35,118 nt of DNA from a virus (lineage: Duplodnaviria; Heunggongvirae; Uroviricota; Caudoviricetes): IMG/VR virus record IMGVR_UViG_2529293069_000022. One strand, written 5' to 3'. The position numbers were made by a program. Below are positions 6,001 to 12,000 of the stretch, in pieces. How positions within the stretch are numbered: position 1 is the stretch's first letter; each line of letters begins with the position of its first letter.

Positions 6001-9000
6001 AACATACGGACCGGGTAGCAACGTTGTACTGCCGGCAGAAGAAGCGGAAGAACTGGCAAGAATTGCGCTGGCATCACTGGAAGCAAAACCAATAGCGTGG
6101 GAATGCGGCGAAAACATAATCCTGTTTAATCCTGACACAGTTGAAGCATACGCAAAACGTGCGGAGGTATCACCTAAACCACTATATGCCGCGCCGCCAG
6201 TTCCGGTAACTCCGGATGGTTGGATAAGCTGTAGTGAGCAAATGCCAGAAATGGGAGAGCGACAATGCTATGTGTTAGCGGCTGACTTTAAAAACAACTA
6301 CCCGCCAAACATCCCCAACACTCAGGTCGGCGTATATGGCGACTGGTTTAATGATGGCAATCCCACTTGGGATGACGGTGATGGCGAAGACCTGTATCTC
6401 AAAGAGGTAACCCACTGGATGCCGCTACCGGAACCGCCGCAGGAGGTGAAGTGATGAATTGGCCTGAAGCATTCACCGCTGTAGGAGTTGCAATAGCGGT
6501 GGCATTTATTCTGTATTCGCTTTTCCGCTGGGGATAAAGGAATGTTCGCTCTGATTCAACGTGGTCAGATATACACCGATAGCGCCGGCTATCCGATAAA
6601 AATTCTTCGCTGCATAAACAACACTGTGTTGTACAGAAGAATGGATGGGCGAACACAGTCGGTAAAAATAAACGATTTTAATGAACTGTTTGAACGGATT
6701 GATCACCAGGAATACCGACAAATTCTGGCAGAAACAGAGCAGGAAGCTCATCTGAAAAAATTACGAGCCATGAAAAGGAAGTAAAGAATGAATAAAGCAT
6801 TTGAACGATGGGTCCACCAGCGTTACGGCAATCACTATGACCTGACGCGAGATGGTGACGGTTTCTACTGTCGTGAAGTTGTGAAGCGAATGTTTGACGT
6901 GTGGTGCCACTGCCGTGGGCTGAGTGTTGTGTGAGGTGATGTATGGGGCTGGATTGCGTGCCTATATCAACCTACTGCCGCGACGCGGGAGAAACGGTTG
7001 ATGCCGTTAACAAACGGATACAAAGAGGAATATGGAAAGAAGGGGTTCATGTATTAAAAGTCGATGGAGTTAAAGAACGCTGGGTCGACTTAATAGAGGT
7101 TTCAAAATGGGCAAGAAAGAACAAGGATTATTATCTCTGCCAAGAGGAGTAACTATTCGTAAGCATAAAACTGCTTCAACACTAGTTATCACTTTCACAT
7201 ATAAAGGGGGTCTTTGCAGGGAGCCCCTGTCTCGGCTTGAGGCAAATACACGTGGTATTAAATATGCTGAGCGCCTGCTAGGGGAGATACAAAATCAGAT
7301 CGCCAGCGGAACGTTTGAATATGCGAAATATTTCCCCAGTTCCAAAAAACTGGAGTTATTCGGTATAGTAAAGAAAACCAAAAATATTAAGTCCTATCTT
7401 GATGAATACCTGAAAATTTGCATGAACCGCAATCTGTCGCCGTCAACCATTGGCGGTTACGAAAAATGTATATCAGCACTATCAGAGCTACATAAACTAC
7501 ATGTAACAGAATTGACGCCTGCGGTACTAAAAAATTGGATAGCCAGCCGAAAAACTAAGCTGAAAACAATCAGGAATAACCTGTCATTTCTGCGCAGCGC
7601 CATTGATGAGGCTGTAACTGATGGCCTGTTGACTATTAACCCGGTAACTCTTGTCAGCGCCAGCCGGTATCACGTGGTCGACAGTAAACCGAACGCCGAC
7701 GATTACGAAGTTGATCCGTTTGCGCCTGCGGAAACCAGTGCCATATATCAGCACTGCAAGTATCAGGAATGGCAGAATCTGTTCCGCTTCGCCTTCAATA
7801 CAGGGCTACGCAGCTCTGAGCTATGCGCATTACGTTGGACCGATATCGACTTTATAGGTAATACAGCGCACATACAGGCAGCCAGTGTCGTAGGCATATT
7901 GAAAGGCACCAAAACAAAAGCAGGCACCCGTAAAGTGAAATTAAACAGTGAGGCTCTGGCGGCTCTGCAAGCACAAAAGCAATTCACATTCATGAAAAGC
8001 GAGTTCATATTCAGTGACCCCAAAACGAAAGAGCCTTGGGCGAACGCTGATGCAATCCGCAAAAAAGCATGGGTTCCCACCCTTAAAAAAGCCGGTGTCC
8101 GTTACCGTAACCCCTACCAGACGCGACACACGTTCGCCACGCGGCACATCAGCCAAGGTGTAAATCTATTCTGGCTTGCTGGCCAGATGGGCCACAAAGG
8201 ACCGGAAATGCTGTTCCGACATTATGGTCGCTACCTTTCGGCCTATGATGGCAAAACGTCACTTGATAACCATGCACAACATTTTACGTGATCGCCCTAT
8301 GCGCGCGTTTCCAATCACAAACATAGCAAAACTGAAGACCACCTTGATTAAAAAAATAAGCTATCATCTATGTAATCAATAGGTAAAAAAACAGTGCAAA
8401 CCACCAAATAAAACATTAAAAATCATGATGTTACACATTAGCAAGAAACAATACAAAAACATTTCACTTGACTTATCTTAATATTATGATTTTAAAGAAA
8501 AATATTTTTTTAACAAGACAGTGTATGGACTGTGATAGTACTTGAAGAGTGGTAGTACAAGCTGTTATCCTTTGCTCCACAAATACAAGATTTTGTTGTT
8601 TTTTGATTTTCAATCACTTAGCGTATCAGCGGCGAAACGCAATAACTGGAGTCCACTATGAAAAAAACCCTAGCAGTAGGTTTTGGTGAAGGTTAACTTC
8701 TGATCTTTACTATTTAAAAAAACGCTCTCCATTAGCACAACAAGACCTCCTCATGGAGGTCTTTTGTTATAGGAAACAAAGAGATGGCAAGGATTATTGT
8801 CAACATCAGCGCAACAGTTTTCACCCTTATGCTCTTATTTAGGGCATTGTTCACTTACATTTATCCAGACACACTTCCTTTCGATATAGCTATCATCGAC
8901 TGGCTTGTCGTAGCTTCAGGTTCAGGTGCTGCCATTTCTTCTATCTTCTGCTTTATCAAAAAACGCTACCCCGATACAGCAGAATTTTTACCGATGTTCA

Positions 9001-12000
9001 GCACAATTTGTTATGTGATCGTGCTGATCGGATACGCAATATTAAGGTACACCCCCACATATCAAACCTCATTGTCAATAATGGTTACAGGGATGTTAGT
9101 TGGTATGGGATGGTGGATACAGTGCATTACTTCTGCAGCCAATACTCGCAGATCACATACCCTGAACATGATCATTAACACGCGAACCAGCCCGGAATAC
9201 CAGAAACAATTAAGAAACAGCACCGCTTTCTATCGAGGTATGCGCTATGTACCACAAGAACTTTCAGAATGGCGATGCAACCCTGATAAAGACGAATATA
9301 AGAATATGAAAGTACCGGAAGAATATCGCGACGCAATTAATGGGCTTCTATATATTCTTAACTACTTTGAGTTTCTTGCCCAAGGGATCAAATTCAAAGA
9401 TTTAGATGACGGGTTACTAAAAGAATGTTTCTCAAGCTTCCTAAGAGGCATCGAGAGGCGAGGGTTTCACATGATCTTAGAGTCGCAAAAGCAAGATCCA
9501 GCAGCATTTGAAGGAATTATTTATCTTTCTAAAAAATGGAATGGTTCATCATTTGTAGAAACTCACCGATCAAACCCAAATACTGTTGAACTTGGTATCC
9601 CTTATCCGTCAAACGAAATTGTTGAGAAAATGGTGAAGGGCATCCCCATCCTTGAGGAAGAACCAGCGCCAGAGTTACATCTTGCCTCCGAAACAGAGAC
9701 TCAGTAATGACACAAGAGGGATATCAATATGCACGTAAAATGCACTTAGCCAGTATCAAAACTTAATAACTAAATATATTCAATGAGTTATGCTATTTTC
9801 GGACACGGGTTCAACTCCCGCCAGCTCCACCACTTTTTAGTTGTTTGAAGTACAATGAAGTCTACTAAGCCCGCACAGCACAAGCTCTGCGGGCTTTTTT
9901 ACGTCTATTGTCGTCCAGTGAGAATTGCTGAGAACTACGAGTTATGGCACCCTGAATGGGACCCACTAAGAAGGGTCCAAAAACCGAGGGTCCCAAAATG
10001 GCAAAAATCGCTAAGAAGCTCACTGACACTGAAATCAAAAGCACCAAGCCAGCCGACAAAGAAATCAACTTGTTTGACGGAGATGGTTTGATACTACGAA
10101 TCGCTCCCCTCTCGAAAGGAGGAAAGAAGAATTGGTATTTCAGGTATGCAGTGCCAGTGAGTAAAAAAAGAACCAAAATGAGCCTTGGGACCTATCCTCA
10201 CCTTACACTGGCAAGAGCCAGAGCCTTACGTGATGAATATCTTTCCTTTCTGGCAAATGGTGTTGATCCACAAATCCATAACAACGATAAGGCGAAGGCA
10301 TTAAAGAGTGCTACTGAGCACACTCTCCAAGCCGTAGCGCGGAAATGGTTAGATGAGAAGGTAAAGACATCAGGTATCTCACAAGACCATGCAGCAGACA
10401 TCTGGCGCAGCTTAGAGAGAAATGTCTTTCCTGGTCTGGGTAATGTCCCTATCAATGAGATCCGGCCTAAGCTCTTAAAACAACACCTTGATCCTATTAA
10501 GCAACGAGGCGTATTGGAAACTCTACGCCGTATCATTTCACGTCTGAATGAAATCTTCAGGTGGGCAGCTACTGAAGAACTTATTGAGTTCAACCCGGCT
10601 GACAACCTTGGTCAAAGATTCAGTAAACCAAAAAAGCAAAATATGCCTGCCCTTCCCCCAAGCGAATTGCCAAGGTTTATGGAATCTTTGACGAATGCGT
10701 CAATCCGGTTGGAAACACGTATGCTAATTGAATGGCAATTGTTGACATGGGTTCGTCCGGGTGAAGCCGTTCGCGCAAGATGGTCTGATATTGATACAAC
10801 CAACAGCATTTGGAACATTCCTGCTGATTTCATGAAAATGAAAAAGCCTCACAAAGTTCCTTTGAGTAAAGAAGCTTTGCGCATCCTTGAATTAATGAAA
10901 TCAATAAGTGGGCATAGAGAATGGGTTTTCCCCAGCATTAAAGCGCCTCTTAATCATATGCATGAACAAACAGCCAACGCAGCTATCATCCGAATGGGGT
11001 TCGGAGGCGAGCTTGTAGCTCACGGTATGCGTTCTATTGCGCGAACAGCGGCAGAGGAGTCTGGTAAATTCAGAGCTGAAGTTCTTGAGGCAGCGCTTGC
11101 CCACTCGAAAAAAGATGAAATTATCGCAGCATACAATCGTGCAGAATATCTGATAGAGCGACAGAGTTTGATGCAATGGTGGAGTGATTACGTTCAAGCT
11201 CAAAGATCAAATGCTCTGGTAGCCTAAGTATCAGAATAGCTAATATAATCCTGAAGGTAAAGAAAATGGAAACCCTATTCAAAGTTTTTGAAAAATTTAG
11301 TTCCAGACCACTTTTTTTTATTTTTTTCGGACTCTCACTTTGTGAATTTTTTCAGAAACAATCTGTTCTGATGAATCCATCAGCAGATAACATCGCGAAA
11401 TTATTCGCAGCCATGATATTAGTTGTTTTTTTTACTTGGGGATTTGAATGGCTAATCTTTAAATTCAATGTAAACCTTGAACCTCATGATCAAGGCGATA
11501 TTGGACCAACAATTGGAACGGCTGCTTTAGCTGTATACTTAGTTTATGCCTTTCATTTTCTCAGTGAAAATCCTGAAGCATTAAATTTAAAGTTATTAAC
11601 TAACTCTGGTTTTATATACAGCACAACTCTATTATTATTCTCATTAGAAAGTATGAAGCTTAGAAGACTTAAACAAAAGTAAACAACATCATTGCGAGAT
11701 AAATACAAAAGAGGTATGGCGGTAAATCACCATACCTAAAACATAATAATTTTGGTAGTATCGGTGATACATAATCCACACAAATATTGGAGCGATACTG
11801 AGACGCTATAACCTGATATCTTTCTCCATAACCAATTCTAAGTTCAGATTTAAGATGCGTTTTTTTTCTTTCCCTTTTTCTTTTGGGGTTTATCGTGATG
11901 TGAATAATATATCTTTGGTTTCAGATTAAATCCTTCAACAACTTCCTTCCAAGTTTGAACCGCTAATAAAAATTGAATAGAATTGATGTCAATTAATTTT

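What the first reader, a model, noticed from the sequence alone, without database searches (positions are those of the whole stretch)
8784..9707. Membrane-protein cargo gene between prophage int and the att repeat
A 307-aa protein with about four N-terminal TM helices and an unassigned soluble domain occupies the int-att interval, the classic location for lysogenic-conversion or superinfection-exclusion genes. It is preceded by a terminator with almost no room for its own promoter between terminator and ATG, which is unusual and suggests either read-through control or a promoter embedded upstream of the hairpin.
Basis: inference. Interest (0 to 1): 0.5.

Follow-up and report, generated by a model that had tools for sequence, protein, structure and literature searches.

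The report
Mini-peptide gene plus terminator-gated prophage membrane protein
The 307-residue membrane protein at the prophage's integrase end is real. It belongs to a conserved unit in which a tiny 12-codon gene and a transcription stop signal sit in front of it, and the same six-residue peptide ending turns up in many unrelated phages, pointing to an undescribed peptide-based control system.

Summary
ORF 8784-9707 (+) encodes a 307-aa inner-membrane protein with four N-terminal hydrophobic helices and a cytoplasmic all-helical DUF4760 domain (PF15956). It lies between a lambdoid prophage integrase and the ssrA 3' fragment, and a hairpin plus T-run ends 14-20 nt before its ATG.

The main new result explains the "no room for a promoter" puzzle. 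The gene is the distal part of a conserved unit:
- an extended -10 promoter (8542-8571);
- a Shine-Dalgarno-led 12-codon mini-ORF (8658-8696, MKKTLAVGFGEG);
- the intrinsic terminator (8742-8770);
- the DUF4760 gene.

Thirty-eight unique leaders were tabulated from Escherichia, Dryocola, Shewanella, Pseudomonas, Halomonas and metagenomes. All 38 carry a mini-ORF ending G-x-G-[E/A]-G-stop and all but one a clean terminator hairpin. Wobble-position variation shows selection on the peptide. More divergent relatives carry related motifs, sometimes duplicated.

The same hexapeptide ending occurs 6-30 times more often than permuted controls in other phage mini-ORFs (T7-, T1-, T4-like and lambdoid phages).

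No SLATT, Abi or exclusion family matched, and the function is untested. I favour a peptide made in excess that restrains a throttled membrane effector. A cis-acting leader-peptide attenuator is a close rival.

The parts
7107..8291 (+). Prophage tyrosine integrase, reading toward att. It marks the int end of the lambdoid prophage.
   Evidence: ORF. RefSeq annotates it 'site-specific integrase' in the 99.9 % identical CB9615 locus.
8542..8571 (+). Predicted promoter of the module: -35 TTGAAG (8542-8547), 18-nt spacer, TG (8563-8564), -10 TATCCT (8566-8571). The inferred transcription start is about 8578.
   Evidence: Phylogenetic footprint read by eye. All 13 enteric and Shewanella leaders keep CTTGAx-N18-TGnTAnnnT (confirmed by regex) while the flanking sequence diverges. 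The generic consensus scan did not call it; that scan proposed 8463-8490 and 8510-8539 at chance level. Not tested experimentally.
8648..8651 (+). Shine-Dalgarno GGAG of the mini-ORF, 6 nt before its ATG.
   Evidence: Sequence. An SD-like element lies 4-18 nt upstream of the mini-ORF ATG in 36 of 38 unique leaders.
8658..8696 (+). Mini-ORF of 12 codons plus TAA, encoding MKKTLAVGFGEG. The conserved C-terminal hexapeptide is VGFGEG.
   Evidence: Alignment shows 4 synonymous changes against 1 non-synonymous between copies about 77-80 % identical. All 38 unique leaders carry it, and L075 has the variant MLSIGFGES. Glycine codon positions 1 and 2 are invariant and position 3 varies across 23 unique 21-mers. 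There is a single match in the window and 0 in shuffles.
8742..8770 (+). Intrinsic terminator: AAGACCTCC-tcat-GGAGGTCTT followed by TTGTTAT.
   Evidence: dG -13.8 kcal/mol. It is the only conserved helix in the RNAalifold consensus of 8 enteric leaders. The stem sequence differs between clades while pairing is kept.
8771..8774 (+). Ribosome-binding site (AGGA) of the DUF4760 gene, 9 nt before the ATG.
   Evidence: Sequence. It is conserved in the close relatives aligned.
8784..9707 (+). DUF4760-family inner-membrane protein of 307 aa. TM1-4 lie at about residues 3-25, 33-58, 66-88 and 96-118. The cytoplasmic helical domain spans about 119-290, and the tail 292-307 is disordered.
   Evidence: plus (domain model pLDDT 92.6, pTM 0.86). 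Invariant motifs are GMGWWIQ, RRxHTLN, RTSxEYQ, LNYFEFLAQG, DLDxxLLxECF and ERR.
9797..9832 (+). 3' fragment of ssrA (tmRNA). It is the right-hand att site of the prophage and the left boundary of the next island.
   Evidence: Homology shared with about 1,900 E. coli genomes begins around 9772-9786.
9882..9896 (+). Terminator-like hairpin downstream of the ssrA fragment. It is the first terminator after the DUF4760 gene.

Best explanation
Shown. The gene is the distal half of a self-contained prophage cargo unit. The order is: extended -10 promoter, about 80-nt 5' UTR, strongly initiated 12-codon mini-ORF (MKKTLAVGFGEG), intrinsic terminator, RBS, DUF4760 inner-membrane protein.

Inferred with good confidence. 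No promoter fits between the terminator and the ATG. The membrane protein can therefore be made only from transcripts that read through the terminator, so the cell makes much more mini-ORF message, and hence peptide, than membrane protein. The mini-ORF is translated, and its C-terminal hexapeptide is what selection preserves.

Favoured mechanism (inference). The hexapeptide is a trans-acting partner of the protein's conserved, basic, cytoplasmic domain. It is made in excess and holds a potentially harmful membrane effector in check. When peptide supply collapses, for example on shut-off of host gene expression by an infecting phage, the effector is freed and damages or gates the inner membrane, excluding the invader. 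This is the antidote-first, terminator, toxin layout of the type III toxin-antitoxin system ToxIN, with a peptide in place of the antitoxin RNA. Free-standing copies of the same hexapeptide in virulent phages would then act as antidote mimics.
For: Architecture and conservation:
- All 38 unique leaders from enteric bacteria, Shewanella, Pseudomonas, Halomonas and metagenomes carry an SD plus mini-ORF ending G-x-G-[EA]-G-stop. A hairpin with a T-run follows (dG -11 to -16 kcal/mol; one, L051, is irregular), and the gene starts a further 19-85 nt on (usually 19-49).
- A three-base periodicity of variation shows selection on the peptide. The closest diverged copy has 4 synonymous changes against 1 non-synonymous.
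- A conserved promoter lies upstream.

Pointing to a trans-acting peptide rather than pure cis control:
- RNAalifold finds no conserved antiterminator in the enteric leaders, only the terminator.
- The distance from the stop codon to the hairpin varies from 9 to 46 nt.
- The mini-ORF is duplicated in L090 (MKTLNAIGYGDG plus MIGYGDG) and in L150 (MNTAVGEG twice). In both, only the second copy is near the terminator.
- The motif is repeated within single mini-ORFs, as SGCFESGCFE and SGSNESGCNE.
- The motif class changes together with the protein clade: GxGEG at 45 % identity or more, GYGDG at 41 %, and IGCEE, SGCFE, GSGCG, DGYGIS and EGIGLG at 25-32 %.
- The same ending occurs outside this context at 37 loci against 6 for a permuted control, and at 60 against 2. 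These include internal copies and multi-copy small proteins.

Cargo status, and hints that the protein is costly:
- It sits at prophage ends in several genera.
- The same int-att slot holds alternative cargo or a deletion in related prophages.
- It is rare in E. coli: 11 listed carriers among 5,426 complete genomes.
- The conserved domain faces the cytoplasm and carries many invariant Arg, Lys and His residues.
Against: - There is no experimental datum on transcription, translation, toxicity or phage resistance.
- No homology to any known toxin, channel or defence protein was found.
- Peptide binding to the domain was not tested, because no complex prediction was available.
- One genome, Enterobacter sp. 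EA-1 (L013), has a 1-nt deletion in the A-run of the mini-ORF next to an apparently intact gene. That would be lethal for an essential antidote unless it is a homopolymer sequencing error.
- A mini-ORF immediately followed by a terminator and then a gene is also the textbook layout of a cis-acting attenuator.
- In KP32-like phages the G-E-G codons (GGGGAGGGC) double as the Shine-Dalgarno of the portal gene, so part of the motif's spread could be selection at the nucleotide level.
- DUF4760 modules are rare, which sits awkwardly with conserved antidote mimics in hundreds of virulent phages.
Confidence: 0.35

Rival explanations
1. Cis-acting leader-peptide attenuator. The mini-ORF is a regulatory leader. 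The nascent C-terminal G-x-G-E-G slows or arrests the ribosome at or near the stop codon, perhaps in response to a metabolite, translation stress or release-factor or tRNA status. Ribosome position then decides whether the terminator forms, so the membrane protein is induced only under that condition. The free peptide has no function.
For: - The layout is the canonical one for ribosome-mediated attenuation: promoter, SD-led short ORF, intrinsic terminator, gene.
- Conservation is concentrated in the last 5-6 residues next to the stop codon, as in TnaC and in the erm and cat leaders (established knowledge).
- In Pseudomonas the stop codon is only 9-17 nt from the hairpin base, within reach of a terminating ribosome. 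L008 shows a plausible set of alternative pairings, 1:2, 2:3 and 3:4.
- In free nascent RNA the mini-ORF SD often pairs with the CCUCC 5' arm of the terminator.
- The same motif sits 2-5 nt upstream of terS and portal start codons in other phages, where a paused ribosome would control re-initiation.
Against: - There is no conserved antiterminator or anti-antiterminator in enteric leaders.
- The spacer is 25-46 nt, unstructured and poorly conserved in enterics.
- Duplicated upstream mini-ORFs lie too far from the terminator to act on it.
- Internal and repeated motif copies, and mini-ORFs followed by a terminator with no gene downstream, are not explained.
- Motif diversity tracks the protein clade although the ribosome is invariant.
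- The stop codon is mostly the efficient TAA.
Confidence: 0.3
2. Constitutive superinfection-exclusion or lysogenic-conversion membrane protein. The protein acts directly at the inner membrane, for example by blocking DNA entry or altering a transporter. The terminator merely insulates it from integrase transcription and keeps its level low, and the mini-ORF is incidental to function.
For: - The prophage-edge position is the classic one for such genes.
- It is an inner-membrane protein with four TM helices.
- In P. putida an O-antigen-type acyltransferase (PF01757) lies three genes away, beyond the lysis genes of the same prophage end.
Against: - The periplasmic loops are about 8 residues long, and TM1-3 are the least conserved part. 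The strongly conserved part is cytoplasmic.
- There is no match to SieB, Imm, Cor or other exclusion families.
- This reading does not explain the near-universal, peptide-level conservation of the mini-ORF.
Confidence: 0.12
3. Sensor of phage peptides. [IV]G[YF]GEG peptides are a common phage product, and the cytoplasmic DUF4760 domain detects them. The peptides could come from an invader, or be released by lysed neighbours and re-imported. The cis-encoded copy would tune or prime the sensor.
For: - The motif is widespread in T7-, T1-, T4-like, lambdoid and one unclassified 114-kb phage, often next to lysis, terminase or portal genes.
- The conserved domain is cytoplasmic.
Against: - Encoding the trigger immediately upstream of the effector is paradoxical.
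- The structural similarity is not significant (Foldseek E > 1, probability 0.35 or less).
- No export or import evidence exists.
Confidence: 0.08
4. The apparent peptide conservation is really an RNA or Shine-Dalgarno-like element (GGNGARGG), and the ORF is not functionally translated.
For: - GGTGAAGG resembles an extended SD.
- The Glu codon is always GAA.
- In KP32-like phages these bases are the SD of gene 8.
Against: - An ATG with its own SD at correct spacing is found in 36 of 38 leaders, and the frame is open with a stop directly after the motif in every unique leader.
- The positions upstream of G-E-G change conservatively at the amino-acid level: V/I at one position, and F/Y (less often V or T) at the other, through different codons.
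- Pseudomonas variants with G-A-G (GGTGCAGGC) lose the SD likeness but keep the ORF.
Confidence: 0.05

Closest known systems
Pfam DUF4760 (PF15956); PHROGs 8946, 21275, 2284, 23112
   Same: There is a significant HMM match over TM4 plus the helical domain. The family is recorded in bacteria and phages.
   Different: Typical family members, as I recall the Pfam description, are about 150-190 aa with one TM helix. This subfamily adds three N-terminal TM helices. No function is known for any member. The only paper in the library that mentions the name is a genomic-island catalogue.
Type III toxin-antitoxin / abortive-infection loci such as ToxIN (established knowledge)
   Same: The order is promoter, short and sometimes repeated upstream element, intrinsic terminator, then a single effector gene. 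The terminator sets a high ratio of upstream product to effector. Both are carried on mobile elements.
   Different: The upstream element here is a translated 7-17-codon ORF rather than a processed RNA repeat. The effector is a membrane protein rather than an endoribonuclease. There is no sequence or fold relationship, and toxicity is untested.
Leader-peptide transcription attenuators and arrest peptides (trpL, thrL, TnaC, ermCL, cat/cmlA leaders) (established knowledge)
   Same: A short SD-led ORF lies just upstream of an intrinsic terminator and the regulated gene. Conservation is focused on the C-terminal residues.
   Different: No conserved alternative hairpins were detected. There is no run of one regulatory codon. 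The motif also occurs away from any terminator or gene and in multiple copies.
Lambda RexAB (established knowledge)
   Same: It is a prophage-expressed exclusion system built from a four-TM inner-membrane component and a cytoplasmic sensing component. The protein here has both kinds of part in one chain.
   Different: No homology was detected. Rex has no leader peptide. The resemblance is analogy only.
Phage 'morons' (Hendrix/Juhala concept; established knowledge)
   Same: It is an autonomous promoter-gene-terminator unit inserted at the edge of a prophage. It has lower GC than its neighbours and is present or absent among otherwise related phages.
   Different: Its internal regulation, a mini-ORF plus a terminator upstream of the gene, is not a usual moron feature.
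EP domain of plant EDS1/PAD4/SAG101

Membership tests
DUF4760 (PF15956) | Pfam HMM score above the curated gathering threshold | tested here: met
   55.7 bits against a cut-off of 25, E = 7.9e-15, residues 106-252 on profile positions 8-141 of 141. All 53 homologues also carry PF15956.
SLATT (SMODS/SLOG-associating 2TM effector) families | Match to a SLATT Pfam model, a 2-TM architecture, and linkage to a nucleotide-signal generating enzyme | tested here: not met
   There is no SLATT hit at E <= 1 in Pfam. The protein has four TM helices. No CD-NTase, TIR or SLOG gene is adjacent in any locus examined.
Known Abi / defence proteins (PADLOC-DB v2) | Significant match to a defence-system HMM | tested here: not met
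   The only hit is DrmMII at E = 0.01 and 12.6 bits over 75 residues, which I judge spurious.
Known superinfection-exclusion families (SieB and similar) | Match to the family model, or a functional domain exposed to the periplasm | tested here: not met
   No such Pfam, PHROG or NCBIfam hit was found. The periplasmic loops are about 8 residues long and the conserved domain is predicted to be cytoplasmic.
Phage moron | Own promoter and terminator, position between conserved phage modules or at the genome end, presence/absence polymorphism, and deviant composition | tested here: met
   The promoter is a phylogenetic footprint. The next terminator-like site downstream is at 9882-9896. The edge position recurs in five genera. 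Related prophages show alternative cargo or a deletion at the same slot. GC is 0.30-0.43 against 0.46-0.51 for int. Promoter activity is not testable here.
Leader-peptide transcription attenuator | Translated short ORF upstream of the regulated gene | tested here: met
   SD, ATG, open frame and stop are conserved in all 38 unique leaders, with a codon-position pattern that indicates coding. Translation itself was not observed.
Leader-peptide transcription attenuator | Intrinsic terminator between the leader ORF and the gene | tested here: met
   A hairpin plus T-run was found in all 38 leaders (37 clean stem-loops, L051 irregular), with stems that differ between clades. It is the only helix in the RNAalifold consensus.
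Leader-peptide transcription attenuator | Mutually exclusive antiterminator structure controlled by ribosome position | tested here: inconclusive
   None is conserved in 8 enteric leaders. Single-sequence folds show SD-to-5'-arm pairing, and L008 shows a 1:2/2:3/3:4 arrangement, but neither is consistent across clades.
Ribosome arrest peptide | Sequence-dependent ribosome stalling | not testable with these tools
   Only the conservation of the C-terminal residues is visible. Toeprinting or ribosome profiling is needed.
Type III TA (ToxIN-like) | Tandem RNA antitoxin repeats processed by an endoribonuclease toxin, with a terminator between them | tested here: not met
   The terminator position matches. 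The upstream element, however, is a coding mini-ORF, and the effector is a membrane protein with no ToxN or AbiQ match.
EP-domain (EDS1 family) | Significant fold match plus an N-terminal lipase-like domain | tested here: not met

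The most novel reading that the evidence does not exclude
[I/V]-G-[Y/F]-G-[E/D]-G is a widespread, previously unnoticed phage-encoded hexapeptide 'currency'. In prophages it is the labile antidote, or ligand, of a DUF4760 membrane effector that aborts or excludes infections. Virulent T7-, T1- and T4-like phages, and lambdoid phages, carry free-standing 7-40-codon genes ending in the same hexapeptide as antidote mimics. Alternatively, the peptide could be a lysis-released inter-phage signal read by the cytoplasmic DUF4760 domain. This would make it the smallest known protein antitoxin or anti-defence gene, and a new class of peptide-gated membrane immunity.
Probability: 0.15. 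Interest if true: 0.9.

Novelty: new variant of a known kind. Interest (0 to 1): 0.65.

Why it matters
The gene alone is an annotated domain of unknown function. The unit around it gives that family its first mechanistic handle: a conserved translated mini-ORF and a terminator that gate a prophage membrane protein across gamma-proteobacteria.

Genome annotation does not record mini-ORFs of 7-17 codons, so this layer of phage biology is invisible in databases. Here the ending is conserved from Escherichia to Pseudomonas. It also recurs in Klebsiella T7-like phages (33 contigs in this scan; the surrounding region matches 418 phage records) and in several Klebsiella T1-like phages.

If the peptide acts in trans, it defines a new kind of peptide-controlled membrane effector, with matching phage counter-measures. 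If it acts in cis, it is a new ribosome-sensing leader family. Either outcome can be tested directly with a few constructs, and both bear on how prophages keep dangerous cargo silent.

Tried and rejected
- Family scans. Pfam, PADLOC, PHROGs and NCBIfam gave only DUF4760 and PHROGs of unknown function. This rules out assignment to SLATT, Abi, Sie or housekeeping families.
- PDB sequence search with the family profile. Nothing beyond a spurious TNFAIP3 hit at E = 0.07.
- Rfam scan of 8200-10000. No family covers the leader. STnc180 scored 19 bits, below its cut-off.
- Generic promoter scan. It gave chance-level sites, which I replaced with a phylogenetic footprint.
- Search for a conserved antiterminator. 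RNAalifold found none. Constrained single-sequence folds gave inconsistent alternatives.
- The long-range pairing of 8701-8716 with the gene's start region seen. It is not conserved: UTAK-6 has a deletion there.
- Alternative cargo genes of O103:H2 in the same slot. No Pfam or PADLOC match.
- Literature searches for DUF4760, PF15956 and the peptide strings. Nothing relevant. HepS (PMC13043305) is an unrelated HEPN protein.
- Resemblance of [T/S]-[V/I]-G-[Y/F]-G-[D/E] to the potassium-channel selectivity filter TVGYGD. This comes from memory only, with no test possible, so I treat it as probably coincidental.
- An ssrA/tmRNA-specific link. Rejected because homologous modules sit at other integration sites.

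Full report
**What is at the coordinates**

ORF 8784-9707 (+) exists and encodes 307 aa. Hydropathy gives four hydrophobic segments at about residues 3-25, 33-58, 66-88 and 96-118. Basic residues cluster after TM2 (KKR) and TM4 (RR), which implies that both termini and the C-terminal domain are cytoplasmic. An AlphaFold2 model built on 28 homologues (pLDDT 82) shows four long helices followed by an all-helical domain and a disordered tail at 292-307.

Pfam assigns residues 106-252 to DUF4760 (55.7 bits against a cut-off of 25). PHROGs give four families of unknown function. PADLOC and NCBIfam give nothing meaningful.

The window is 100 % identical to E. coli O157:H7 493/89 over 8300-9900 and 99.9 % identical to O55:H7 CB9615, where the protein is WP_000101041.1, 'DUF4760 domain-containing protein'. 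Only 11 listed genomes among 5,426 complete E. coli genomes carry the gene.

**Surroundings**

Upstream lies a lambdoid prophage, with cI/cro, O/P, nin, exo-bet-gam, kil, cIII, xis-like genes and int at 7107-8291. Downstream, at about 9797-9832, is the 3' end of ssrA. A second, CP4-57-type integrase follows at 9956-11227, opening an island that carries DUF6119, His-Xaa-Ser and ABC-three-component genes. The gene is therefore the last gene of the prophage before its right-hand att site. ARAGORN finds no complete tmRNA gene in the window, so the reconstituted ssrA gene lies outside it.

**It is cargo**

- The same unit follows the same integrase type in prophages whose early regions differ (C311, UTAK-6, PS1Thumoskin9, Cronobacter).
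- In O103:H2 PV16-126 the int-att slot instead holds two unrelated reverse-strand genes.
- In O145:H28 RM12761 an IS3-flanked deletion left only the last 164 nt of the gene next to att.
- In P. aeruginosa (including phage Riah), P. putida, P. granadensis and another Pseudomonas, the homologue is the terminal gene at the lysis/tail end of prophages or tailocin-like clusters.
- GC is 0.30-0.43 across the unit, against 0.46-0.51 in int.

**The terminator puzzle and its solution**

The hairpin at 8742-8763 has 9 bp and a 4-nt loop, followed by TTGTTAT. It is real. Only an RBS (AGGA, 8771-8774) lies between it and the ATG.

Aligning the upstream region with copies that are 77-94 % identical revealed a short ORF whose differences are almost all synonymous. 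In the window it spans 8658-8696, is preceded by GGAG (8648-8651), and encodes MKKTLAVGFGEG.

I collected homologous loci from isolate genomes, IMG/VR and metagenomes and looked upstream of each gene. All 38 unique leaders have:
- an SD-like element, present in 36 of 38;
- a mini-ORF of 8-17 codons ending G-x-G-[E/A]-G-stop;
- a hairpin of -11 to -16 kcal/mol with a T-run, clean in 37 of them;
- the gene's start codon a further 19-85 nt on, usually 19-49 nt.

Two further loci depart from this. L075 ends in GES rather than GEG. L013 has a 1-nt deletion in an A-run.

Examples of the mini-ORFs are MKNTFTVGFGEG (Dryocola), MDKTFAVGFGEG (Shewanella), MMNVGFGEG (Stutzerimonas), MKLETGVGAG (P. aeruginosa), MMKHTTNFELLIGYGEG (Halomonas) and MKTFYIGYGEG (an IMG/VR viral contig, L051; the related Cronobacter sakazakii homologue P0051 was not checked for its leader).

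Across 23 distinct versions of the last six codons, positions 1 and 2 of the three glycine codons never vary while position 3 takes T, C, A or G. The residue before the first glycine is usually V or I (S or T in some). The residue between the first two glycines is F or Y, or less often V or T, through different codons. The stop is TAA, TAG or TGA. This is the signature of selection on a peptide.

The terminator stems differ between clades (AGACCTCC, AAAGGCCC, AAACTCCTCA, AAGGCTTCC, AAGCCCCC) while pairing is kept.

A promoter is also conserved. All 13 enteric and Shewanella leaders keep CTTGAx-N18-TGnTAnnnT. In the window this is TTGAAG at 8542-8547 and TGtTATCCT at 8563-8571.

**How far the association reaches**

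The family has about 385 representative clusters at E <= 1e-3 among 1.8 billion proteins. Members only 25-41 % identical to the window protein still have mini-ORFs followed by a terminator, with related but different endings:
- L090 has two mini-ORFs, MKTLNAIGYGDG and MIGYGDG.
- L150 has MNTAVGEG twice.
- L129 has MILSIGCEE.
- L130-133 have MVITQSGCFESGCFE.
- L134 has MTYKFNSGSNESGCNE.
- L135 has MKKSIILMHGSGCG.
- L138-145 end in ...ADGYGIS.
- L144 and L147 end in ...FN[ED]GIGLG.

The recurring unit looks like [S/I/V]-G-x-x-E.

**The motif outside this family**

- An exact scan of IMG/VR for VGFGEG-TAA found 37 loci, of which 24 are followed by a DUF4760 gene. A permuted control found 6 loci, which represent 4 independent contexts.
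- IGYGEG-TAA found 60 loci against 2 for its control, and only about 7 of the 60 precede a DUF4760 gene.

The other contexts are:
- a 7-codon ORF, MIGYGEG, wedged between the gene 7.3-like gene and the portal gene of Klebsiella KP32-like T7-family phages;
- mini-ORFs MRDIGYGEG and MRKLIGYGEG, each followed directly by a terminator. MRDIGYGEG lies after the lysis cassette of Klebsiella T1-like phages;
- small ORFs of about 40 codons with unrelated N-termini ending VGFGEG or IGYGEG, 2-5 nt upstream of a terminase small-subunit gene;
- an 11-codon ORF in T4-like contigs upstream of a gp47-like gene, followed by the mini-ORF MNDEFDGF;
- a 97-aa protein on a 114-kb contig ending ...IGYGEGISNDEFDGFVGFGEG, matching PHROGs 4499 and 6828, both of unknown function;
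- a protein ending ...DSGSFDSGCTESGANEIGYGEG, which joins the SGxxE and IGYGEG unit types.

One caveat applies. In KP32-like phages the G-E-G codons also form the SD of the portal gene.

**The protein**

Conservation is highest in TM4 and the cytoplasmic domain, in the motifs GMGWWIQ, RRxHTLN, RTSxEYQ, LNYFEFLAQG, DLDxxLLxECF and ERR.

**Mechanism**

Shown by the sequence comparisons: the unit's parts, and their conservation.

Inferred: the membrane protein is transcribed only by read-through of the terminator, and the mini-ORF is translated.

For the role of the peptide there are two serious models.

*The cis model* is a leader-peptide attenuator or arrest peptide. It fits the layout and the C-terminal focus of conservation. 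Against it:
- there is no conserved antiterminator;
- the stop-to-hairpin distance varies from 9 to 46 nt;
- upstream duplicate mini-ORFs lie too far from the terminator to act on it;
- the motif occurs in internal and multiple copies;
- some mini-ORFs are followed by a terminator and no gene.

*The trans model* treats the peptide as a product made in excess that partners the cytoplasmic domain. It explains those observations, and it explains why the motif co-varies with the protein clade. It also parallels the antidote-terminator-toxin layout of ToxIN. I therefore favour it slightly (0.35 against 0.30), with the effector acting as a conditionally released membrane-damaging or gating protein used for exclusion or abortive infection.

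The weaknesses of the trans model are that toxicity, binding and any phage phenotype are all untested. In addition, one genome has a frameshifted mini-ORF beside an intact gene.

**Comparison with what is known, and verdict**

The protein is a member of DUF4760. It is not a member of SLATT, of known Abi or Sie families, of ToxIN, or of the EP-domain family. The unit works like a moron with an internal attenuating terminator. The translated mini-ORF with a conserved hexapeptide ending has no Rfam family and does not appear in the searched literature.

I rate it a new variant of a known kind, with interest 0.65.

Noticed in passing
IMG/VR loci L203-L257 (for example L211 1970-1993; L261 1271-1294 = Klebsiella phage KP32 isolate 194, NC_047969 about 19011-19034): An unannotated 7-codon ORF, MIGYGEG, lies in Klebsiella KP32-like T7-family phages (33 contigs). 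Its ATG overlaps the stop of the gene 7.3-like gene (ATGA), and its TAA lies 3 nt before the portal gene. Its GGGGAGGGC also serves as the portal gene's Shine-Dalgarno.
   Followed up: partly
L235, L246, L259, L260 (Klebsiella T1-like phages, after the holin-endolysin-spanin genes); L217, L231: Free-standing mini-ORFs MRDIGYGEG and MRKLIGYGEG, each with its own GGAGG Shine-Dalgarno, are followed directly by a hairpin and T-run. No DUF4760 gene lies downstream.
   Followed up: partly
L167, L181, L228, L258 (lambdoid-type contigs): Small ORFs of about 38-40 codons have unrelated N-terminal sequences but all end in VGFGEG or IGYGEG. Their stop lies 2-5 nt upstream of a terminase small-subunit gene (MARPLNEFG...).
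   Followed up: partly
L159 and L180 (about 170-kb T4-like contigs); L176 494-787 (114-kb contig): In the T4-like contigs, an 11-codon ORF ending VGFGEG is followed by the mini-ORF MNDEFDGF, upstream of a gp47-like nuclease gene. On the 114-kb contig, the same two motifs are fused in a 97-aa protein ending ...IGYGEGISNDEFDGFVGFGEG (PHROG 6828). From memory, NDEFDGF resembles acidic SSB-type C-terminal tails.
   Followed up: no
window 8580-8645: The 5' UTR of the unit contains a block, TTTTCAA-N3-CTTAA (window about 8611-8624), that is conserved among enteric leaders although it lies outside the mini-ORF and the terminator. It may be a protein or RNA binding site.
   Followed up: no
window 8520-8536: An inverted repeat, ACAGTgtatggACTGT, lies just upstream of the inferred -35 element. 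It is partly conserved in UTAK-6 (ACAGTGCAAGGACACTG) and could be an operator.
   Followed up: no
window 9823-9900: A partial Rfam match to the IsrM sRNA (56.6 bits, E = 2e-14, far below the listed gathering score) spans the end of the ssrA fragment and the sequence downstream of it.
   Followed up: no
window 9956-22442: A second island inserted at the same ssrA site has a CP4-57-type integrase, a 138-aa hydrophobic ORF (11266-11682) and a DUF6119-like ORF (11850-13481, intact here at 543 aa but frameshifted in CB9615). It also carries a His-Xaa-Ser radical-SAM cluster and an ABC-three-component system. In the window, several of the large genes appear as two adjacent ORFs (for example 15266-15940 with 15906-16643, and 19448-20302 with 20479-21768), which may indicate frameshifts.
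   Followed up: no
L153 3628-4748 (E. coli O103:H2 PV16-126): A related prophage carries alternative cargo in the same int-att slot: two reverse-strand genes of 255 and 113 aa with no Pfam or PADLOC match.
   Followed up: partly
L013 (Enterobacter sp. EA-1, CP025776): The mini-ORF has a 1-nt deletion in its A-run (ATGAAAAGACAC...), giving MKRH-stop, next to an apparently intact DUF4760 gene. This is either a homopolymer sequencing error or a natural leader mutant.
   Followed up: no
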